A DNA stretch of 64,000 nucleotides, from assembly GCA_019414505.1 (NCBI GenBank), contig DXLW01000030.1:42378-106377 (forward strand), given 5' to 3'. The position numbers and the translations under genes are program-made. The notes under the pieces are model-generated. The model ran no database searches. It saw only the letters and a program-made list of their open reading frames with translations, and was not told the DNA's origin. How positions within the stretch are numbered: position 1 is the stretch's first letter; every line of letters begins with the position of its first letter. Of this stretch, positions 13,601-64,000 are shown one piece after another. This stretch comes from Collinsella sp. Lineage in GTDB: Bacteria > Actinomycetota > Coriobacteriia > Coriobacteriales > Coriobacteriaceae.

Positions 13601-14145
13601 TTAATCTTTTTGAGCGCACGCTCCTTGCGGCGCTTGTGCTTGGAGATGCCGGCGGCCTCCTCGATGAGGGCACGGCGCTCCTCGGGGCGGCTCTGCAAGA
13701 TGGCATCGAGCTTGCCCTGGCTGATGATGGAATGTGTATCCTTGCCCAGGCCCGAATCGTGCAAGATGTCCTGAATGTCCATCAGGCGGCACGGGCTCGA
13801 GTTGATGAGGTACTCGCTTTCGCCCGAGCGATACATACGACGGGTGATGGCGACCTCGTCAAAATCGACGGGCAGCATATGGTCCGAGTTATCGAGCACA
13901 AGCGTGACCTCGGCGACACCCACCGGCTTGCGCGCTGACGAGCCCGAGAAGATGACATCCTCCATGGCCTGGCCGCGCAGCTGCTTGGCGCTCTGCTCGC
14001 CCAGGACCCACAGAATCGAGTCAGAGATGTTCGATTTTCCCGAGCCGTTGGGACCGACGATGACGGTCAGGCCCGGCTCAAACGTCATATGGGCGCGGTC
14101 GGCAAACGACTTGAACCCTTTGAGCGTGAGGGACTTGAGATACAC
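10609..14145 (-). CDS. smc: Chromosome partition protein Smc
   Basis: 1178 aa. N-terminal Walker A GPNGSGKSN, long coiled coils with a central hinge, C-terminal signature LSGGEKSL and Walker B FYVLDEVEAALD. Confidence 0.97.
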   Translation of the reverse strand: MYLKSLTLKGFKSFADRAHMTFEPGLTVIVGPNGSGKSNISDSILWVLGEQSAKQLRGQAMEDVIFSGSSARKPVGVAEVTLVLDNSDHMLPVDFDEVAITRRMYRSGESEYLINSSPCRLMDIQDILHDSGLGKDTHSIISQGKLDAILQSRPEERRALIEEAAGISKHKRRKERALKKIKSMDEHLTRARDINKEIARQLRPLERQVDRARKYKELSSRANELTQMLAVDELRSLQSQWNDLESRSKEGAAELELAQYRLGEKERELEKLQVLLEEKGLFVGDLGEQRRHMQDVVGRINSDMRLLEEKGHNMVSRLSDMRGQISSSEHQRRRVVEELEDARAQLEEVTGAHMQAQEDVDAAGPAAAELHERRVALDNQISQLTREQRDVQRVADNAALELAKVKDSLSNAEVEDNMYASRLEQIDEQLEEVTASLESRHDRAEELEGALEEARRAQVDAREATEVARAALKDLRARESEARNKLSEVRSELASQKKLDARMADSSPLVSRLVGALGDDVSGRLGDVLEAPRELEGLVEQLLAGDIDALLFDDAATLERAGRAALDQKKASGEALLVARGVSGSTAAEGAAGTRLVDLLSVRAGYGPVVEALLGGYYVVDDLSAALSAPVVDGVTYVTPDGARVACGGLVRVGLDAGEASGALERKRRIRELEGLEPDLAAVFERVSDQVVEANAAVEEARAAEDDAAGEIARLEGERRSLLSEIGRLEQSANNAEVERVRISKRREQASEAVRAARPRVDELTRSRDEARAQASDLGLQIAEANDELDRVRRDDSEAAGKLADAKVRLAQTSERLRSLKGRVPDLEHRLEGIDRRIRGTRQASRSLELLRLRVDPMHERYSALLERASDWAARLRDQASLEEADSASLKKTIEDAKAEVARAKERVDTASATQNDFKVARGKLEVQVEAAIKAITADGTTVLEEALMLPAPTDRDAAERELNQLVRQINNLGPVNQVAMEEYEQLKRRADYIEEQLADLESARKALTKITVAIDRKMRKAFLVTFEKVDANFREIFAMLFPGGQAHLEMTDPEHPAETGIEVVAQPRGKRITKMMLMSGGEKSLTALALLFAVYRTRTVPFYVLDEVEAALDDANLSKLIGALDVLRSDTQLLVISHQRRTMEDADVLYGVSMQADGVSRVVSQKLDRETGKVVNA

Positions 14146-23288: not shown

Positions 23289-23363
23289 TGGCTCCCCGGG
23301 TAGGACTCGAACCTACAACAGCGCGGTTAACAGCCGCGTGCTCTACCATTGAGCTACCGAGGA
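23289..23363 (-). tRNA. tRNA-Asn (anticodon GTT), CCA encoded
   Basis: Hand-folded cloverleaf: acceptor TCCTCGG/CCGGGGA, D arm GCTC-AATGGTA-GAGC, anticodon stem CGCGG/CCGCG with loop CTGTTAA, T arm GTAGG-TTCGAGT-CCTAC, discriminator G, CCA. Confidence 0.92.
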
Positions 23364-23397
23364 ATTTAAAAGCCCAACGGAAAGGGCTGGAAAATTC

Positions 23398-23472
23398 TGG
23401 CTCCCCGGGTAGGACTCGAACCTACAACAGCGCGGTTAACAGCCGCGTGCTCTACCATTGAGCTACCGAGGA
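23398..23472 (-). tRNA. tRNA-Asn (anticodon GTT), second identical copy
   Basis: Identical 75-nt sequence, 109 nt upstream of copy 1 on the same strand. Confidence 0.92.
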
Positions 23473-57938: not shown

Positions 57939-58130
57939 GCGTATTGTACGCTGTCAATGTAGGCCAAAGGCAACTTTAAAGCTGTTTTAAGAACTTTTTC
58001 AGACGGGAAGCGACTCGCGCCTGAGCCAGAGAGCCCTACACGTGCCGCTGCACGGCGGAGAAAGGCGAATCCACTACCCCTCAGGCATAATTCCTGAGCA
58101 AAATCAAGCAGAGCACACGGCTTTTTGCGC

Positions 58131-58353
58131 CACTTTAAGACGTAATCGGGATGTGGCGAGAGGCCAAATTCGGAAGTGCGGGGAAAACCAAAGGAATGCT
58201 GACCAGACCCCCGTTTTAGGCTTCCGCGACCTGCGGTTTTGATACAAAAAAACCGCGTTGTGCTCGAAGGTTTTCGTTTTTTCCCCGCACTTCTGTAATT
58301 ACATCTCTGGATCGAGGGCGCAGGCAATGGTGACGACATCCACGATAGCGCCC
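58131..58353 (+). repeat. ~220-bp structured direct repeat, copy 1
   Basis: Roughly 80-85% identical by eye to 60314-60533. It has an internal 15-bp inverted repeat (58173-58187 / 58279-58293) that encloses an 8-bp hairpin (58233-58240 / 58249-58256). Confidence 0.85.
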
Positions 58354-58535
58354 CCCTATGCCTGATACCAAAATCGTTCCATAGGGACCCGTTTCCCAAT
58401 GGGATGATTCTTCACAAAGGGCATTAAGGCGCATGAGAACATGGTAGAGGCAAGCAAGCGCGCTTCCACGTTTTCGCCCATGGTGACCACGGTATAATCC
58501 AACGAGACAAGCAACGAACGGGAAAGGCAGCGCGG

Positions 58536-59918
58536 ATGAACCTGGGCAGCGAGAGCGAGACCGTCGAGTTCAAGAAGTCCACTGGCGAGCATAAAGAAGC
58601 ACTGCAAGCCATCAGCGCCATGCTGAACAAGCACGGCCGCGGCGAGCTCTACTTCGGCGTGAAGGACAACGGCGATGTCATCGGCCAGGATGTCAGCGAC
58701 GCAACGCTGCGCCAGGTGACGTCGTGGGTGTCCGACAAGATCGAGCCCGCGGTGTTCCCGACGGTCGAGTGCCTCGACGCCGATGATGGGCTGCGATACA
58801 TCAAAATTGCCTTCTCAGGTGCCGACGCCCCCTACTCCGCCGACGGACGCTACTTCACCCGCGTGGGGACTTCGAACAAAGCGCTGTCGGCCTCGGAGCT
58901 GAGCGCCATGGTCGTCAAGCGTGAGCGCGCCCGTAGCCCGTGGGACTCGCTGCCGTCCGGCAGGCCCGTCTCCGACGCCGACGAGCAGGCGGTGCGTGAC
59001 TTCGTCGCGCGCGGCGGCAGGGCCGGACGCGTGGGCGGCGGGTTCGCCGGCGTGGAGGACACCTTGGCAAGGCTCGACCTCGTCGCGCCCGACGGCAGCC
59101 TAAGAAACGCCGCGGTGGAGCTGTTCTGCGAGGGATCCGACACCTACCCCAGGATGAAGCTGGGGCTTCTGGGCGGCAACACCAAGGCCAAGATCCTCGA
59201 CCTGCGCCGCGAGTGCGGCACCATGCTCAAGCTGCTCGACTTCGCCGAGTACTTCGTGACGTCGAACATCAGGCGCGAGTTCGTCATCGGCGAGACGGGC
59301 ATGTACCGCAAGGAGATCCCCGAGATCCCGGCCGAGGCCATCCGCGAGGCGGTTGCCAACGCGCTGTGCCACCGCGACTACACCACCGGCACCGCCGTCG
59401 AGGTCAACGTGTTCATGGACACCGTCCAGATCGTGAGCCCGGGCCTGTTCCCCGAGGGCGACTCGCCGCAAGAGCACCTAGACGGTACCGCGAGCGAGTT
59501 CGGCCTCCGAAACCCCGCGATCGCGCGCACCCTGTTCCGCGCCGGCGTCATCGAGCAGTACGGCACGGGCATACCGCGCATCAAGGAGGCCTGCGAGGCA
59601 GCCGGCGTGAGGTTCCGCTTCGAGCAGACCGTCAACAGCACCGTCGTCGTCTTCGAGCGTCCTGGGTTACAGAAAGCGGCCTTCAGGAGAACCGCGGCCG
59701 ACAACCGACCGCTCCTCAGCGAGCGCGAACGAGCAGCGATGGCAATTGCCGCCGCTCAGGGGAAAATCACGACCTCCGACCTCGCGCGGGAGTCCAATGT
59801 CGGTAGGAAAACGGCCTCGAAGACTCTGAAAGACCTTGCCGGGCGAGGCCTGTTGGAATGGGTAGGGAAAAGCCCGAAAGACCCGCACCAGTTCTACAAG
59901 ATGCCAAGCGAAGTTTGA
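58536..59918 (+). CDS. AlbA_2 (Schlafen-type) domain + HATPase_c_4-like + C-terminal winged-HTH protein ('RecG-like putative transcriptional regulator' family)
   Basis: N-terminus SESETVEFKKSTGEHKEAL...ELYFGVKDNGDVIG (AlbA_2). Central NALCHRDY and QYGTGIPRI motifs. The C-terminus ITTSDLARESNVGRKTASKTLKDLAGRGLL is a wHTH. A TATAAT hexamer lies at 58493-58498. Confidence 0.82.
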   Translation: MNLGSESETVEFKKSTGEHKEALQAISAMLNKHGRGELYFGVKDNGDVIGQDVSDATLRQVTSWVSDKIEPAVFPTVECLDADDGLRYIKIAFSGADAPYSADGRYFTRVGTSNKALSASELSAMVVKRERARSPWDSLPSGRPVSDADEQAVRDFVARGGRAGRVGGGFAGVEDTLARLDLVAPDGSLRNAAVELFCEGSDTYPRMKLGLLGGNTKAKILDLRRECGTMLKLLDFAEYFVTSNIRREFVIGETGMYRKEIPEIPAEAIREAVANALCHRDYTTGTAVEVNVFMDTVQIVSPGLFPEGDSPQEHLDGTASEFGLRNPAIARTLFRAGVIEQYGTGIPRIKEACEAAGVRFRFEQTVNSTVVVFERPGLQKAAFRRTAADNRPLLSERERAAMAIAAAQGKITTSDLARESNVGRKTASKTLKDLAGRGLLEWVGKSPKDPHQFYKMPSEV

Positions 59919-59974
59919 GGCTGCAGGTCCTAGCCGGGAAACAGGCCCATTGCGTTTGCTGCCCTCCCCCTGCT

Positions 59975-60029
59975 GGGCACTACTGAGTAATCTACTGGGC
60001 ACTGCTGAGTAATCTACTGAGTAGTGCCC
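59975..60029. repeat. Two 22-nt tandem repeats plus an inverted partial copy
   Basis: gggcactactgagtaatctact / gggcactgctgagtaatctact / gagtagtgccc. It starts 57 nt after the stop of the AlbA_2 gene. Confidence 0.8.
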
Positions 60030-60139: not shown

Positions 60140-60313
60140 GGTCTCCCGAGACTAGCAGAGCCGCCCTTATTGTTAGCGCTGCCGAAGCAAGCCCTACTTC
60201 AGCAGCAACTTGAATTTTCGTGCGATGAGCCTCCCCGGAGCCAAGAGCCTTTTGCCCTAATCACAACACCGCAATTCAAGCACCGCAGAAAACTCCATTA
60301 GCGATGAACCAGC

Positions 60314-60533
60314 CACTTGAAGACGTGATCAAGGTGCGGCAAGGGGTCAAATTCGGAAGTGCGGGGAAAATCGAAGAAATGCTAACCAGGCCCCAGTTTT
60401 CGCTTCCGCGAACTGCGGTTTTGGTGCTAAAAATCGCGTTGTGCTCGAAGGTTCTCGATTTTCCCCGCACTTCCGTAATTACATCCTTGGATCGAGAGTG
60501 CAGGCAACAATGACGTCATCCGCGATAGCACCC
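60314..60533 (+). repeat. ~220-bp structured direct repeat, copy 2
   Basis: Same orientation as copy 1. It has an internal 21-bp perfect inverted repeat (60354-60374 / 60455-60475). The inner hairpin (60415-60422 / 60430-60437) is kept through a G-T wobble, and its loop sequence differs from copy 1. Confidence 0.85.
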
Positions 60534-60622
60534 AACAGTCACGGACGTACAAAAGGCCGTTGCCGGAAGCCTCCATACAACGACTCTTCTTTGCGCGCGC
60601 CACGCTCGCAATGCTCCATTAA

Positions 60623-60685
60623 ATGTAACTAATTGATTTGCTATATACCATTCATAATGGCACATAGCAAATCAATTAGTTACAT
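60623..60685. promoter_or_regulatory. 22-bp perfect inverted repeat (ATGTAACTAATTGATTTGCTAT) just upstream of the low-GC plus-strand genes
   Basis: The arms are 60623-60644 and 60664-60685, and the 19-nt spacer is itself partly self-complementary (ccatt-cat-aatgg). It ends 13 nt before the small-ORF start codon at 60699. The function (operator or terminator) is not established. Confidence 0.45.
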
Positions 60686-60698
60686 GTGGAGGCAGAAC

Positions 60699-60800
60699 AT
60701 GAGGGAGTACGTCGAGAAGCAGCTGCACACTAGAGTCGATTGCGAGCCCAACGACGCCTCGGAAATATCAACGCAAAACTCTTTCCGAAAGTGTAGGTGA
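60699..60800 (+). CDS. Possible 33-aa leader ORF (MREYVEKQLHTRVDCEPNDASEISTQNSFRKCR)
   Basis: ATG lies 7 nt after a GGAGG box. Its TGA stop is 5 nt before the ATG of the 442-aa ORF. There is no homology evidence and it could be spurious. Confidence 0.3.
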   Translation: MREYVEKQLHTRVDCEPNDASEISTQNSFRKCR

Positions 60801-60805
60801 GCGAA

Positions 60806-62134
60806 ATGGCGACTCATGCATACGATGACCTTTATTCTTATCTAGCCGCATTCAAGAACAGCTCTCTTGCCGAAATAATTGCGTACCTAGAAGAACTGGG
60901 GCAAAATAGGTTCGACGCCTTTATTGGGGGCCTTGCACCCCTTATCCCAATCGATAAAATCGAAAATCAATCCCTATTCAATTTTTCTGTTGACTCCACC
61001 CTTGAAGGAGGCAAATTCCCCTGCACTGACTATGCCTGTCGAGAGCAAAACATTTACCATTTGGCAAAGTTCTCAGCATTGTATGCAGATAAAACCCTGA
61101 TTCATTGTCCTATAGATTCGGCATTCGAAATGGCGCACGATGATTATGTCTCAGTCGATGAACTTGCATTCGGGATCTATTTGACCATGCGAGTCGAAGA
61201 CATAGTCAAAGCTGGAATACTCGGATTTTCGAGCAATTACATTCCTCTTTGCGAAAATTGCCTAGCGCGACAAATCGAAAGAGAGTCAAAAGCAAAAGGA
61301 TTGATATCGACTTATTGGGATGATCTCGTACGACAATTCTGCTCCTCTACCACGTGCACTTTAAAACGAGCACCGGATGGGAATCTGTATGTAGCGATTG
61401 AGGGAATGGATGCATATGGGTCCCATGAGGAGATAGATGTCGATTTCCTGGTAATCCCGTCTGAATACGAATCGCTCTATGCAAGCCACGGCGAAACGCG
61501 ATTGGATAGAGACATGCTGGAGAACGGCGGCATCACAACTATCTTACTGCCATTGTTGAACGATAGCTTTCAAGCCCTCGTCAATCCCTATTTTTCGAAT
61601 AGCTCGTATTTAACCACTCGTCCTGCTCAGATTGAGTTCCTCGAGTCCGCAACTTCCACCCTTTATCCTCGAAAGGATCAGACCCTACCCATTCGCCGGT
61701 TATCTTGTCCCCTCCCCATTGCTGAAAATGCGACGTTACGTAGCATCCTTGATTGCCGCATTAGAAACGAAGAGTCGTTTCTTGTGTTTAGGGACACCTT
61801 GTCCAAAGGCCTGAGCGAAAGGCCCATCGACAGTTCAACATTAACTGACCTAAAGAACGACCTAATAGAGCCCGAGCTTCACAAGATATCTTTGGTGATG
61901 AAAAACGAACGATCCCGATTAGTCACCTCCGCAGGCATTGAAGCCGCTATCGGAATTGCAAGCTTTACATTGGGGCAATACGGAGTCGCATCACCTTGTG
62001 ATGTCATGACCATCCTCGGGGCTGCCGGCATAGGGGCCGTTGCATCTCAATCCGCAGATTTCTTGCGAGAAGCCAAGGCAAAAGAGAACCCCATGTATTT
62101 CCTCTGGAAGCTCAATAGAAACAACCGTCTGTAA
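60806..62134 (+). CDS. Orphan 442-aa protein, Cys-rich N-terminal two-thirds, predicted C-terminal membrane hairpin
   Basis: Long low-GC ORF with an AGGTGA box 5 nt before ATG 60806 (the track's start is GTG 60797). Cys pairs: CTDYAC, CENC, CSSTTC. The C-terminus holds two Gly/Ala-rich hydrophobic helices (VTSAGIEAAIGIASFTLGQYGV and VMTILGAAGIGAVASQ). I recognise no family. Confidence 0.7.
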   Translation: MATHAYDDLYSYLAAFKNSSLAEIIAYLEELGQNRFDAFIGGLAPLIPIDKIENQSLFNFSVDSTLEGGKFPCTDYACREQNIYHLAKFSALYADKTLIHCPIDSAFEMAHDDYVSVDELAFGIYLTMRVEDIVKAGILGFSSNYIPLCENCLARQIERESKAKGLISTYWDDLVRQFCSSTTCTLKRAPDGNLYVAIEGMDAYGSHEEIDVDFLVIPSEYESLYASHGETRLDRDMLENGGITTILLPLLNDSFQALVNPYFSNSSYLTTRPAQIEFLESATSTLYPRKDQTLPIRRLSCPLPIAENATLRSILDCRIRNEESFLVFRDTLSKGLSERPIDSSTLTDLKNDLIEPELHKISLVMKNERSRLVTSAGIEAAIGIASFTLGQYGVASPCDVMTILGAAGIGAVASQSADFLREAKAKENPMYFLWKLNRNNRL

Positions 62135-62370
62135 CCTAATAAGAGAACTGACTGAAATATAGTCATCGAATTTTGCAGAGGACCACGCCGGCCCTAGCGC
62201 CCGCACGTAATAGCGATCACGCCCAAAAACGCATACCAACATTGATATTGAATAATCGGGGCACAACGATAAACGCTGGACTCATGAGGAGTTCCCCGCC
62301 TCAAACAGACAGTTCGTCTTACTCAATCAAAAGAAAACGGGGACACACCCAGTGGATGCGTCCCCGATAA

Positions 62371-62394
62371 GAAGGTATCAACCTTCTTTGTATT
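62371..62394 (+). terminator. Small intrinsic-terminator-like hairpin
   Basis: gaaggt-atca-accttc followed by tttgtatt. It lies 237 nt after the 442-aa ORF stop. Confidence 0.4.
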
Positions 62395-62442
62395 GTGAGT
62401 GAGTATTATAGCTATAGTCTTGTTCCCAAAAGAGACTATTTT

Positions 62443-62862
62443 CTAATTCACAAACCAGCCATTAATCAGGCCGCTAATAAATGCGAAACCAGTTCTTATT
62501 TGGTCATTACGAAGATAGTAGCTCTCGTTGCGATACATTCTTTCAGCTAGCCTGCGCAGCTGTTTTCCTTTATTACTCCTTACCCCGGTTGAAGCCATAG
62601 TGCTGTGAAGGTACAACGTAGTCGCAATATGCTGTAGCCGATCGTTTGATAGCTCAGCCTTAACATTCACATCTTGGAGCTTAAGTCCTGTCACAGCATT
62701 TCTTACGTCATACTAAACGTTATACGACCGGAGCCTGAAATAATTATTGTTATGTTTTAAATAACTCAGAGCTTCTTGTTTGCTCATCAAGTTGAACGCT
62801 ACGCCCTTACGCTCCAAATGCTCAATCTGTTGTTCAGGAGTAAGCCATGGTTTATCGTGCAT
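62443..62862 (-). pseudogene. Abi_2 (AbiD/AbiF)-like gene, interrupted by an in-frame TAG and truncated
   Basis: ATG 62862 (GGGGGG box upstream) gives MHDKPWLTPEQQIEHLERKGVAFNLMSKQEALSYLKHNNNYFRLRSYNV, the classic Abi_2 N-terminal pattern. A TAG follows at 62715-62713, and the same frame then continues 89 codons to 62443. The total is about 139 codons, against roughly 300 that I would expect for the family. Confidence 0.6.
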
Positions 62863-62980
62863 AACGCCCCCCACCGGTCATTCTTTATTAGTGAACAGAA
62901 TATCAAGCAATTGACATTGAAAAGTTGTAAGGCGAAGCCCCGCAGGGGCAACGATTAAGGGCAACTACTAATTGGTTTAA

Positions 62981-64000
62981 TTAATTGTCTATTTGTAGTC
63001 GAAATCGATCGGCGCTATAGCAGCAAAATGCCCGAGCACTCAAGCGTTTAATATTCCTGTAAATCTTGGCCTCATCAGGGGCAATCGGATCATTTGGAAA
63101 CGCCTTCTGGGCTCTCGCCACGTAGGAGAGAAAGTTCCCATAGCGAGAAAATGCAGAAGAGTCAGCATCACCCGAAGGGCATAACTTTCTTCCCTTAATA
63201 CCAAGCGGCGAATAATGTTGATACAGAGCGGAGACACGCTTTTTTGATGCGTGCCTTCCCTCCCCCTGATTAGAACGCGCAATCGCAGTGGCTGCCTCAC
63301 GGAGACGCTTGTGGTACCTTCCAACCGTAGACTGTCGAAGTCTTACAACGCGCCCGTCAAAGTCAAATCCCAGGAAACTGATTTTCTGCGCCGGATGTGC
63401 ACCGGAGTACGAAAGGACCTTACCCGCACGAACGCTTTCAAAATCAAGCTGAGCAACTCCGTCGCCATCAACCCAGAACACCTTGGTTTTCTCAGGTTGC
63501 AGTTTAACGGAATCGACATCGGCCATTAGATTGATGGCTTCTACAAGTGCATCAAAGCCAAACTTTGGAACGGCAATAATAAAGTCATCGCAATAACGAA
63601 GATACAAGCCGCCAACCCGTTCAACGGCAAGCCTGACTTTCATGTCGATATCGGCCATATAGATGTTAGCGAGCACTCCGCTTGCGGCAAGACCCTGAGG
63701 AATTCCCAGCCCAATACCCGTTCGCTTCCACGGTCTGGTGATGACCTTACTTTTGTTTGCAAGAAACTCAGACTTTGGCAAGATAACGTCCAGCTTATTA
63801 AGTTCGCGAATAGACTTGAACCGAAGCTCGATAGCTGCATCGCTAATCATTTTCTCCCGAGTAGGATCGATTGCTGGCCATGGCAATTCATGTCGAGCAG
63901 CCAAATCAGCAATAGGCCAGCACGAATAGCGGAGGATATTTTTAATGACTTGATAGTGATCGTCCGGTAAGCGTCCACTGGGAAACAACGAACGCAACGA
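62981..64000 (-). CDS. Stand-alone reverse transcriptase (RNA-directed DNA polymerase); N-terminus lies beyond the right window edge
   Basis: The frame is open to position 64000. Motifs present: GIPQGLAASGVLANIYM (QG box), YLRYCDDFIIAV (YxDD box), KLQPEKTKVF and ISFLGFDFDG (thumb entry). The C-terminal ~115 aa have no recognised domain. Confidence 0.85.
   Translation of the reverse strand, partial: SLRSLFPSGRLPDDHYQVIKNILRYSCWPIADLAARHELPWPAIDPTREKMISDAAIELRFKSIRELNKLDVILPKSEFLANKSKVITRPWKRTGIGLGIPQGLAASGVLANIYMADIDMKVRLAVERVGGLYLRYCDDFIIAVPKFGFDALVEAINLMADVDSVKLQPEKTKVFWVDGDGVAQLDFESVRAGKVLSYSGAHPAQKISFLGFDFDGRVVRLRQSTVGRYHKRLREAATAIARSNQGEGRHASKKRVSALYQHYSPLGIKGRKLCPSGDADSSAFSRYGNFLSYVARAQKAFPNDPIAPDEAKIYRNIKRLSARAFCCYSADRFRLQIDN

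What the first reader, a model, noticed from the sequence alone, without database searches (positions are those of the whole stretch)
60540..64000. Low-GC island with a stand-alone reverse transcriptase, an Abi_2-like partner gene and a convergent membrane-anchored orphan: candidate RT-based defence locus
**Composition.** Right after repeat copy 2 the G+C drops from the roughly 60-65% of the backbone to roughly the low-to-mid 40s (by eye). This suggests recent horizontal acquisition.

**Gene content.**
- An RT with clear QG, YxDD and thumb motifs, open at the window edge.
- 118 nt downstream on the same strand, an ORF with a textbook Abi_2 (AbiD/AbiF) N-terminus and its own SD box.
- A convergent 442-aa orphan ending in a two-helix membrane hairpin.

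**What the RT is not.**
- It does not look like a group II intron RT. I see no domain V-like GNRA hairpin in the 118 nt after its stop, and no visible maturase or endonuclease tail.
- No retron msr/msd is visible. That RNA would lie upstream, beyond position 64000.

**Why it may be new.**
- Abi_2 has been assigned to the HEPN superfamily, as far as I recall.
- Several UG/Abi defence RTs (AbiA-like) carry a fused C-terminal HEPN domain.
- An RT with a separate Abi_2 gene would be a split version of that logic, which I do not recognise as a named system.

**Caveat.** The Abi_2 gene is broken here, so this copy may be decaying.
Basis: partly seen in the sequence, partly recalled or inferred. Interest (0 to 1): 0.72.

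Follow-up and report, generated by a model that had tools for sequence, protein, structure and literature searches.

The report
DRT2 reverse transcriptase in defence island
The low-GC stretch is the edge of a Collinsella anti-phage gene island: its reverse transcriptase belongs to the known DRT2 family, the Abi_2 gene is a dead remnant, and the neighbouring 442-residue gene is independent, so no new paired system is present.

Summary
The sequence features are real: a G+C drop, an RT open at the window edge, an Abi_2 N-terminus 118 nt downstream, and a convergent 442-aa ORF.

The interpretation as a new split RT + Abi_2 system does not hold.

- **RT.** It is a DRT2-family enzyme. The full-length 500-aa form in near-identical contigs scores PADLOC Drt2 E=3e-110, and its best solved structure is Klebsiella Drt2.
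- **ncRNA.** DRT2's canonical partner lies just beyond position 64000. It is a roughly 300-nt structured RNA with compensatory changes and an antisense stop-free ORF, a candidate neo gene.
- **Abi_2.** The gene is an internally deleted cassette. About 500 nt, including the HEPN core, is missing at 62720/62721. It has its own terminator. It sits next to this RT in only one recent lineage.
- **442-aa gene.** It is not an orphan: 782 family representatives were found. It usually occurs without the RT, and homology to such contigs ends 5 nt after its stop codon.
- **Setting.** The region is a mosaic defence island of Collinsella aerofaciens, which also carries Gabija, AbiH, PIN and a Schlafen-like gene in its variants.

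The residual interest lies in the unannotated 442-aa family and the divergent DRT2 clade.

The parts
62981..64000 (-). 3' two-thirds (residues 162-500 of 500) of a DRT2-family reverse transcriptase gene. It is cut by the window edge, not by a mutation.
   Evidence: - ORF and translation.
- PADLOC Drt2 on the fragment: E=1.7e-56.
- The same gene is intact and in frame, with a TTG start, in contigs 99.8% identical to the window.
- Full length: PADLOC Drt2 3.4e-110; NCBIfam Drt2 2.1e-82; PDB Drt2 9c0i 2.9e-31.
62981..63031 (-). Variant 16-codon C-terminal tail (AFCCYSADRFRLQIDN). It was created where the RT module was recombined onto different downstream DNA.
   Evidence: - Homology to the 484-aa RT loci (L001-L003) stops at 63032.
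- Those proteins end at ...KRLSAR.
62323..62888 (-). Abi_2 (AbiD/AbiF-like) gene cassette, now a pseudogene.
- N-terminal fragment: 62713-62874.
- C-terminal fragment: 62443-62694.
- Internal deletion junction: 62720/62721.
   Evidence: - PADLOC AbiD E=6.8e-7 for the N fragment.
- The C fragment is 44% identical to residues 249-318 of the L001 Abi_2.
- A fuller relative, L148, aligns at 104-271 and 778-1181. The window therefore lacks its 272-777.
- Read-through and further-deleted variants occur in other strains.
62338..62366 (-). Intrinsic terminator-like hairpin (13-bp stem, 9 G-C pairs, then a T-run) ending the Abi_2 cassette.
   Evidence: -.
- It is conserved with the cassette in L148.
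60806..62134 (+). 442-aa protein of a widespread, unannotated family.
- An alpha/beta body with four conserved cysteines.
- A C-terminal hydrophobic hairpin.
- A conserved NPMYFLWK end.

It is an independent cassette, convergent with the RT.
   Evidence: - Family size.
- Alignment.
- AF2 model with pLDDT 80.
- No fold or sequence match.
- No match in Pfam, NCBIfam, PADLOC or PHROGs.
- Module borders at 60743-60790 and 62139.
60552..60762 (.). 211-nt block holding a 30-bp-arm palindrome (60623-60685), immediately upstream of the 442-aa gene. The same block precedes a different gene in L004.
60312..60533 (.). Island repeat copy 2, about 225 nt with an internal inverted repeat. Copy 1 is at 58129-58353. 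The two copies bracket the Schlafen/AlbA_2-like gene.
   Evidence: -.
- 99 copies in 68 of the fetched island loci, and only these two in the 64-kb window.

Best explanation
Window 60540-64000 is the right-hand end of a chromosomal defence island of Collinsella aerofaciens. The island is built from independently shuffled single-gene cassettes.

**The RT is the protein half of a DRT2-type system.**
- Its ncRNA occupies the roughly 300 nt immediately upstream of the RT start. That corresponds to window-equivalent positions of about 64484-64784, outside the window.
- By homology with Klebsiella DRT2, the RT binds this RNA. It reverse-transcribes a template segment repeatedly into concatemeric cDNA.
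- After phage-triggered second-strand synthesis, the cDNA is transcribed and translated into a stop-less repeat protein (Neo) that arrests growth.
- The candidate neo frame here is antisense to the ncRNA and reads MLAYGILDESEELVLMTIEALIQLAAGNAGVNVANVGISSFAILTAVAY...

**The Abi_2 gene** is a decayed neighbouring cassette with no role in the RT system.

**The 442-aa gene** is a separate stand-alone cassette. It is possibly a membrane-acting defence effector.

**Shown versus inferred.**
- Shown: family membership, the conserved structured ncRNA, the open antisense frame, and the cassette mosaicism.
- Inferred: rolling-circle cDNA synthesis, Neo production, and any defence phenotype.
For: **RT identity.**
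- PADLOC Drt2 scores 367 bits, E=3.4e-110. The next family that is not a Drt2 model, RT_UG39, scores 5.7e-23.
- The best solved structures are Drt2 (9c0i and others) at 2.9e-31, against DRT1 at 1.8e-7 and retron RT at 4e-4.
- The NCBIfam Drt2 profile is covered at positions 4-405 of 416.

**Unit boundaries.**
- Homology between differently embedded copies (L004 vs L001) runs from -301 to codon 484.
- The RT therefore travels with about 300 nt of upstream non-coding DNA.

**ncRNA.**
- The upstream block is conserved between two RT clades that are only 48% identical in protein.
- 45 proposed pairs are 99.6% paired, against 22-49% in slid controls. Eight pairs changed on both sides.
- The 5' hairpin is CCCAUCGC/GCGAUGGG in one clade and CUUUACGC/GCGUAAAG in the other.
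- Rfam RT-6 (RF03027) hits this position above threshold in Clostridia homologues. It hits weakly in Collinsella clade B (24.9 bits).

**Candidate neo.**
- The antisense frame is stop-free over the template in all four RT clades examined.
- The ATG is conserved, and there are exactly 147 nt between the 5' hairpin and the start-codon complement in both Collinsella clades.
- The only indel in the template is 6 nt, so it is in frame.
- In Klebsiella DRT2, neo is antisense to the ncRNA and template lengths are multiples of 3 (PMC12039810; doi 10.1101/2024.05.08.593200).
- A Clostridiales DRT2 with an N-terminus like the Clostridia-type homologues (L080-L089) is listed with a predicted Neo in that preprint's supplement.

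**Mosaicism.**
- Breakpoints lie at 60743-60790, 62139 and 62960-63032.
- Genes downstream of the RT differ among loci: a 272-aa phrog_4170 protein, AbiH, PIN_12, a KAP NTPase, RES, AAA_21, and a DUF4238-Abi_2 fusion.
- Gabija lies upstream in L006, L007 and L009.
Against: - The ncRNA and the first 161 RT codons are not in the window. They are inferred from contigs 96-99.8% identical to it.
- The NCBIfam score (277 bits) is below the Drt2 equivalog cut-off (390). The clade is therefore divergent.
- I could not find the ACA-1/ACA-2 bracket of Klebsiella DRT2, and I could not fix the repeat junction. Any in-frame junction would give a stop-free concatemer, so that test is weak.
- Substitutions between the two Collinsella clades show no codon-position bias in the candidate neo frame (13/11/9).
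- Covariation rests essentially on two clades, and the tested structure was derived from the same sequences.
- Gene callers annotate the antisense frame as an ordinary 76-85-aa ORF. A conventional small gene is not excluded.
Confidence: 0.8

Rival explanations
1. The RT and the Abi_2 (HEPN) protein form a two-gene defence system, a split version of AbiA-like RT-HEPN fusions. The convergent membrane protein would be a third component.
For: - Same strand, with 118 nt spacing.
- Abi_2-family genes recur near this RT in three different forms:
  - the window remnant;
  - a split Abi_2 3.6 kb downstream in L001, L002, L016 and L031;
  - a DUF4238-Abi_2 fusion 7 nt after the RT stop in L025 and L039.
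Against: - The remnant lacks about 500 nt, including the HEPN motif region. It is decaying further in other strains.
- The cassette has its own 5' region and its own terminator. In L148 it has a different upstream neighbour.
- The RT-Abi_2 junction is a recombination breakpoint inside the RT's 3' end.
- 70 of 80 species-level RT loci have no Abi_2-like sequence within 6 kb. None of the 48%, 40% or 35% identity clades does.
- DRT2 is known to need only the RT and its ncRNA.
- The 442-aa gene usually lacks the RT.
Confidence: 0.04
2. The RT belongs to a mobile retroelement (a group II intron or a retron) rather than to a DRT system.
For: Generic RVT_1 domain. Weak secondary hits to group II (TIGR04416, 63 bits) and retron RT profiles.
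Against: - Those hits are far below their cut-offs (63 vs 300 bits; 43 vs 235 bits). They are also far below the Drt2 hit.
- No group II intron or retron RNA family was found in the window or the related loci.
- There is no maturase or endonuclease tail.
- The gene sits at a fixed chromosomal site in dozens of Collinsella species.
Confidence: 0.02
3. The conserved upstream block is not a template RNA. It would be a conventional divergently transcribed small gene encoding a hydrophobic peptide of about 67-87 aa, together with its shared promoter region. The RT would then act by some other mechanism.
For: - Gene callers annotate a 76-85-aa antisense ORF with a start and a stop.
- The peptide is hydrophobic.
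Against: - Helices with compensatory changes span the same nucleotides.
- There is no synonymous-site bias.
- The ORF's 3' end falls in non-conserved DNA and varies in length. In clade B it ends inside the 5' hairpin.
- There is homology to the RT-6 RNA motif found at other DRT2 loci.
Confidence: 0.08

Closest known systems
DRT2 (UG2 reverse transcriptase + ncRNA; Klebsiella pneumoniae KpnDRT2, PDB 9c0i)
   Same: - Same RT family by three profile libraries and by the best solved structure.
- One protein gene, with no conserved protein partner.
- A co-oriented structured ncRNA of about 300 nt immediately upstream, with a 5' hairpin, a long template and a 3' scaffold with a possible pseudoknot.
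- An antisense stop-free frame over the template.
   Different: - About 25-30% identity to KpnDRT2, and below NCBI's equivalog cut-off (277 vs 390 bits).
- The RT is longer: 484-500 aa against 425.
- The apparent template is at least 147 nt (49 or more codons) against 120 nt (40 codons).
- No recognisable ACA-1/ACA-2 bracket.
- The host is an actinobacterial gut commensal.
- Nothing has been tested experimentally.
Rfam RT-6 RNA motif (RF03027)
   Same: It matches the 5' hairpin plus the ...UUGUCAA segment at the start of the template. It lies upstream of the Clostridia homologues of this RT (49-60 bits) and matches weakly in Collinsella clade B.
   Different: - The window-type (clade A) RNA does not reach E<=10 with the RT-6 model. 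Homology is seen only through the A/B alignment.
- RT-6 covers only about 75 of the roughly 300 nt.
Abi_2 / AbiD-AbiF family (PF07751, HEPN-type abortive infection proteins)
   Same: The N-terminal ~48 aa and the C-terminal ~70 aa are recognisably Abi_2.
   Different: It is internally deleted, the HEPN core is absent, and stop codons are present. It is a pseudogene, not a working member.
AbiA / AbiK-type UG/Abi RTs with fused effector domains
   Same: Defence RTs of the same broad UG/Abi assemblage.
   Different: No fused or conserved HEPN partner. The RT is of the ncRNA-templated class (DRT2), not an AbiA/AbiK-type enzyme. That contrast rests on established knowledge.

Membership tests
DRT2 (UG2) defence system | Reverse transcriptase of the DRT2/UG2 clade | tested here: met
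   - PADLOC Drt2: 3.4e-110, 367 bits. The next family that is not a Drt2 model scores 5.7e-23.
- PDB Drt2 9c0i: 2.9e-31.
- NCBIfam Drt2: 2.1e-82, covering 4-405 of 416, but 277 bits is below the equivalog cut-off of 390.
DRT2 (UG2) defence system | Structured ncRNA immediately upstream of the RT and co-oriented with it | tested here: met
   It lies outside the window. It was tested in contigs 96-99.8% identical to the window and in relatives.
- The conserved block starts at -301.
- 99.6% of cells are paired, 8 pairs show compensatory changes, and slid controls give 22-49%.
- Rfam RT-6 hits in relatives.
DRT2 (UG2) defence system | No conserved protein partner (single-gene system) | tested here: met
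   Downstream and upstream genes differ among 89 loci.
DRT2 (UG2) defence system | The template gives a stop-free antisense ORF (neo) when concatenated, with a repeat length that is a multiple of 3 | tested here: inconclusive
   - The antisense frame is open across the template in all four clades.
- The indel is in frame at 6 nt, and the spacing is conserved at 147 nt.
- The junction cannot be located.
- There is no codon-position bias.
DRT2 (UG2) defence system | Conserved ACA-1/ACA-2 motifs bracketing the template | tested here: not met
   - No ACA lies next to the 5' hairpin. The site varies (UAC, CAC, UGC).
- No shared bracket motif is common to clades A and B.
- This may reflect a divergent clade. 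Tang et al. note that Neo annotation is harder in divergent clades.
DRT2 (UG2) defence system | Concatemeric cDNA synthesis and phage defence | not testable with these tools
   Requires expression, cDNA sequencing and phage assays.
Abi_2 (PF07751, AbiD/AbiF) | Complete Abi_2 domain including the HEPN Rx4-6H core | tested here: not met
   - No Pfam hit.
- Only profile positions 2-46 of 277 of PADLOC AbiD match.
- The window lacks L148 positions 272-777.
   - About 10 of 80 species-level loci, from three unrelated Abi_2 lineages, and only in clade A.
- None in the other clades.
Group II intron RT | Intron RNA domains and a maturase domain | tested here: not met
   - No Rfam intron family.
- TIGR04416 scores 63 bits against a cut-off of 300.
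Retron | A retron-clade RT with msr/msd | tested here: not met
   - Retron profiles score 43 bits or less against cut-offs of 235 or more.
- No retron RNA family was found.

The most novel reading that the evidence does not exclude
The 442-aa protein (60806-62134) represents an unrecognised single-gene defence family.
- It has a cytosolic alpha/beta domain with a Cys4 site and no detectable structural relative.
- That domain is tethered to a C-terminal membrane hairpin that would act as the effector.
- It rides as an autonomous cassette in defence islands.

A second, less radical possibility concerns the RT. The Collinsella DRT2 clade may use a longer template of at least 49 codons and a non-ACA jumping rule to make a hydrophobic Neo.
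Probability: 0.25. Interest if true: 0.55.

Novelty: new member of a known kind. Interest (0 to 1): 0.3.

Why it matters
There is no new RT + Abi_2 system here.
- It documents a divergent DRT2 clade fixed at one chromosomal hotspot in dozens of Collinsella species, which are abundant human gut commensals. Its ncRNA and candidate neo differ in length and in bracket motif from the Klebsiella model. This clade is a useful test of how general the template-jumping rules are.
- It flags a large family (782 representatives) with a confidently predicted but unmatched fold and no annotation anywhere. That family is a reasonable candidate for defence screening.

Tried and rejected
**Source contig.**
- An exact look-up of the 445-aa GTG-start form found nothing. 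The 442-aa ATG form worked.

**Known RNA families on the window-type ncRNA.**
- Rfam on the window found only two tRNAs.
- Rfam at E<=10 on the window-type ncRNA gave only spurious miRNA and FourU hairpin matches. RT-6 was not recovered.

**Locating the neo repeat junction.**
- I looked for short direct repeats at the template ends. Several candidates appeared, but none was shared by both clades. Distances of 155 or 164 nt would need the +1 nt rule. I rejected this as undecidable from sequence.

**Codon-position test on the candidate neo.**
- No signal.

**Function of the 442-aa protein.**
- I tried Pfam, NCBIfam, PADLOC, PHROGs, a PDB profile search, and Foldseek against PDB and BFVD. All were negative.
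- The faint methionyl-tRNA synthetase and PIN-like matches (E>=0.2, TM<=0.3) were judged to be noise.
- A viral-contig scan found no relative.

**Intact close homologue of the window's Abi_2.**
- Only deletion variants and one short, scaffold-gapped relative were found.

**Prophage or ICE cargo.**
- No integrase or phage genes were seen in the flanks. Only transposase fragments occur, in some variants.

Full report
**1. What is in the sequence**

The composition shift is real. G+C is 0.59-0.69 over 58400-60000. From about 60400 to the window end it is 0.40-0.51.

On the minus strand, an ORF with its stop at 62981 runs off the window at 64000. It has 339 codons and carries IPQGLAASG and YCDD.

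An ATG at 62862, 118 nt downstream, opens a 49-53-aa ORF. Its sequence (KPWLTPEQQIEHLERKGV...) matches only the first 46 positions of PADLOC's AbiD profile, at E=6.8e-7. It has no Pfam hit. An 83-aa ORF follows at 62443-62694.

On the plus strand, 60806-62134 encodes 442 aa.

A direct repeat of about 225 nt (58129-58353 and 60312-60533, about 84% identical) brackets a Schlafen/AlbA_2 + HATPase_c_4 + wHTH gene. That gene has backbone-like G+C.

**2. The RT is a DRT2 enzyme and is intact**

The fragment already scores E=1.7e-56 against PADLOC Drt2.

An exact look-up of the 442-aa protein recovered contigs that match the window at 96-99.8% identity through 64000 and continue beyond it. In all six contigs the RT frame is open for 500 codons from a TTG start. 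The '341-aa' gene calls there reflect the gene caller's choice of start codon.

The full-length protein gives these scores:

| Library | Best hit | Comparison |
|---|---|---|
| PADLOC | Drt2, 3.4e-110, 367 bits | next non-Drt2 family, RT_UG39, 5.7e-23 |
| NCBIfam | Drt2, 2.1e-82, profile 4-405 of 416 | 277 bits is below the equivalog cut-off of 390; group II 63 bits vs 300; retron 43 bits vs 235 |
| PDB sequences | Klebsiella Drt2 9c0i, 2.9e-31 | DRT1 1.8e-7; retron RT about 4e-4 |

One genome per species in GTDB gave about 55 Collinsella/Coriobacteriaceae loci with RTs of 88-98% identity. It also gave a second Collinsella clade at 48%, an Enterorhabdus homologue at 40%, and Clostridia homologues at 33-37%. 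The best match names the host: Collinsella aerofaciens.

**3. DRT2's canonical partner lies just beyond the window**

DRT2 works with an upstream ncRNA of about 280 nt. A template segment of this RNA is copied into concatemeric cDNA. The cDNA encodes a stop-less ORF, neo, on the strand antisense to the ncRNA. In Klebsiella the template is bracketed by ACA motifs and its length is a multiple of three (10.1101/2024.05.08.593200; PMC12039810).

*Shared unit.* Homology between differently embedded RT copies (L004 vs L001) starts 301 nt upstream of the RT start and ends at codon 484 (alignment). RT plus 300 nt is therefore the mobile unit.

*Conservation and structure.*
- The block is conserved between the two Collinsella clades even though their RTs are only 48% identical.
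- RNAalifold predicts 74 pairs, 10 of them with compensatory changes.
- For 45 pairs that I specified, 99.6% of cells pair, against 22-49% when partners are slid. These pairs cover a long hairpin inside the template, a small hairpin, a 14-bp 3' hairpin and a 6-bp pseudoknot. Eight pairs changed on both sides, including within-clade events in L039 and L075.
- The 5' hairpin reads CCCAUCGC/GCGAUGGG in one clade and CUUUACGC/GCGUAAAG in the other. That adds four further double changes. MAFFT mis-registers this hairpin, so it was read directly from the sequences.
- Caveat: the structure was derived from these sequences, and the evidence comes essentially from two clades.

*Known RNA motif.* Rfam's RT-6 motif (RF03027) hits the equivalent position above threshold in four Clostridia homologues. 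It hits at 24.9 bits in Collinsella clade B. It does not hit the window-type RNA.

*Candidate neo.*
- The antisense frame is stop-free across the template in every clade.
- In the Collinsella clades it starts at a conserved ATG.
  - Clade A reads MLAYGILDESEELVLMTIEALIQLAAGNAGVNVANVGISSFAILTAVAY.
  - Clade B reads MLAYGILDGDAEITDMIISALAQLCAGNVGINSANVGISSFALLTAITH.
- The distance from the 5' hairpin to the start-codon complement is exactly 147 nt in both clades. The only indel is 6 nt.

*What is not shown.*
- I found no ACA bracket and could not locate the junction.
- Substitutions show no codon-position bias.
- The Klebsiella authors likewise attribute most Neo conservation to RNA-level constraint.

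**4. The Abi_2 gene is a dead, independent cassette**

- The 83-aa ORF is 44% identical to residues 249-318 of the Abi_2 gene of L001. The N fragment is 57-59% identical to residues 7-52.
- A fuller relative, L148, aligns to the window at its positions 104-271 and 778-1181. The window therefore lacks about 500 nt at 62720/62721, including the region that carries the HEPN motif.
- Other strains carry a read-through 179-aa version of the same deletion, or a larger deletion.
- The homology with L148 spans 62323-62888. That includes the cassette's own 5' region and a strong terminator at 62338-62366. L148 has a different sequence upstream.
- Identity between the window and the 484-aa RT loci stops at 63032, inside the RT's last codons. 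This created a 16-residue tail.
- Across 80 species-level RT loci, about 10 have any Abi_2-like sequence within 6 kb. These belong to three unrelated lineages, all in clade A.
- Other clades have a KAP NTPase, RES, AAA_21 or a methyltransferase downstream.
- The commonest downstream neighbour in Collinsella is an unannotated 272-aa protein (phrog_4170).

**5. The 442-aa gene is not an orphan and is not tied to the RT**

- An exhaustive HMMER scan found 782 representatives at E<=1e-3. They are nearly all 430-460 aa and align end to end.
- Invariant residues include C73, C78, R79, C149, D253 and the C-terminal F-L-W. C152 is nearly invariant.
- The AF2 model is confident (pLDDT 80, pTM 0.78). 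It has no match in PDB or BFVD (best E=0.2 and 0.03, TM<=0.22).
- No library annotates the family.
- The most abundant Collinsella variant (94% identical, 2636 member sequences) sits next to the same Schlafen-like gene but has no RT within 5 kb. Identity to the window ends at 62139, 5 nt past the stop codon. Beyond that point lie a 239-aa gene, a 111-aa gene and a 1167-aa P-loop gene.
- More distant members lie beside Type I restriction-modification genes, a MobA relaxase, or housekeeping genes. None was found in viral contigs.
- I therefore read it as an autonomous cassette. A defence role is an inference from its location only.

**6. Synthesis**

The region is a recombination-shuffled defence island. 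It lies between polysaccharide-synthesis genes and contains:
- the island-specific 225-nt repeats (99 copies in 68 fetched loci);
- a Schlafen-like gene;
- the 442-aa cassette;
- the Abi_2 remnant;
- the DRT2 unit;
- beyond the window, either Gabija or PIN_12 and AbiH.

By its own refutation criteria, however, the proposed new RT + Abi_2 system is not there.

**7. Verdict**

- The RT is a new, divergent member of a known kind (DRT2).
- Interest is modest at 0.3.
- What remains open is the unannotated 442-aa family and the exact template-jumping rule of this DRT2 clade.

Noticed in passing
window 58129-58353 and 60312-60533: A ~225-nt direct repeat (about 84% identical), each copy with an internal 35-nt inverted repeat. 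The two copies bracket the Schlafen-like gene. They are the only copies in the 64-kb window, but the element recurs (99 hits in 68 loci) in variants of this island. It may be the recombination substrate that shuffles the cassettes.
   Followed up: partly
window 60552-60762 (palindrome 60623-60685): A 211-nt block with a 30-nt-arm, 93% complementary palindrome lies just upstream of the 442-aa gene. The same block (87% identical) precedes a different 329-aa gene in L004 (5554-5765). It may be a portable promoter or operator cassette. Rfam gives only a spurious miRNA-like hit.
   Followed up: partly
window 58536-59918 (+): A 460-aa SLFN_AlbA_2 + HATPase_c_4 + winged-HTH protein with backbone-like G+C (0.66-0.69). 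It has weak PADLOC matches to pAgo-associated Aga domains and a PHROG 'DNA helicase' match (4.8e-53). It is another likely defence or regulatory cassette.
   Followed up: partly
L006/L007/L009 14122-17663 (window-equivalent about 64930-68470): A complete Gabija pair (GajA with AAA_15 + OLD-TOPRIM, and GajB with a UvrD helicase) lies immediately upstream of the DRT2 ncRNA. In L004, L005 and L008 only a 171-aa UvrD_C remnant is left, followed by PIN_12 or AbiH genes.
   Followed up: partly
L007 ~13907-13912, also L016 and L025 (ncRNA template): A 6-nt insertion (AATCGC) lies in the loop of the template's long hairpin. It adds Ala-Ile in the candidate neo frame. It is the only indel seen in the template and it is a multiple of three.
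   Followed up: yes
L025 7459-8934 and L039 7635-8934: A 491-aa fusion of DUF4238 (1.2e-22) with the C-terminal half of Abi_2 (3.2e-17) starts 7 nt after the RT stop codon. It is split in L039. It is a third, unrelated Abi_2-type gene at this hotspot.
   Followed up: partly
L017 8020-8838 and about 30 other Collinsella loci: A 272-aa protein with no Pfam, NCBIfam or PADLOC hit (phrog_4170, function unknown) is the commonest gene about 570 nt downstream of the 484-aa RT. Whether this is synteny by descent or a functional link was not resolved.
   Followed up: no
L080 5646-5719, L082 5653-5729, L088 5629-5715, L089 5540-5618: The Rfam RT-6 motif, described as an RT-associated sRNA, coincides with the 5' hairpin and the start of the template in the ncRNA of DRT2 homologues. 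RT-6 therefore appears to be a fragment of the DRT2 ncRNA.
   Followed up: partly
window 23289-23472 (-): Two tandem tRNA-Asn (GTT) genes lie 109 nt apart, start to start.
   Followed up: no
L098 7723-11226 (-): In the RT-less island variant, a 1167-aa P-loop protein with only faint PADLOC hits (PDC-S73, mad8), plus 239-aa and 111-aa unknowns, replace the Abi_2 and RT block to the right of the 442-aa gene.
   Followed up: no
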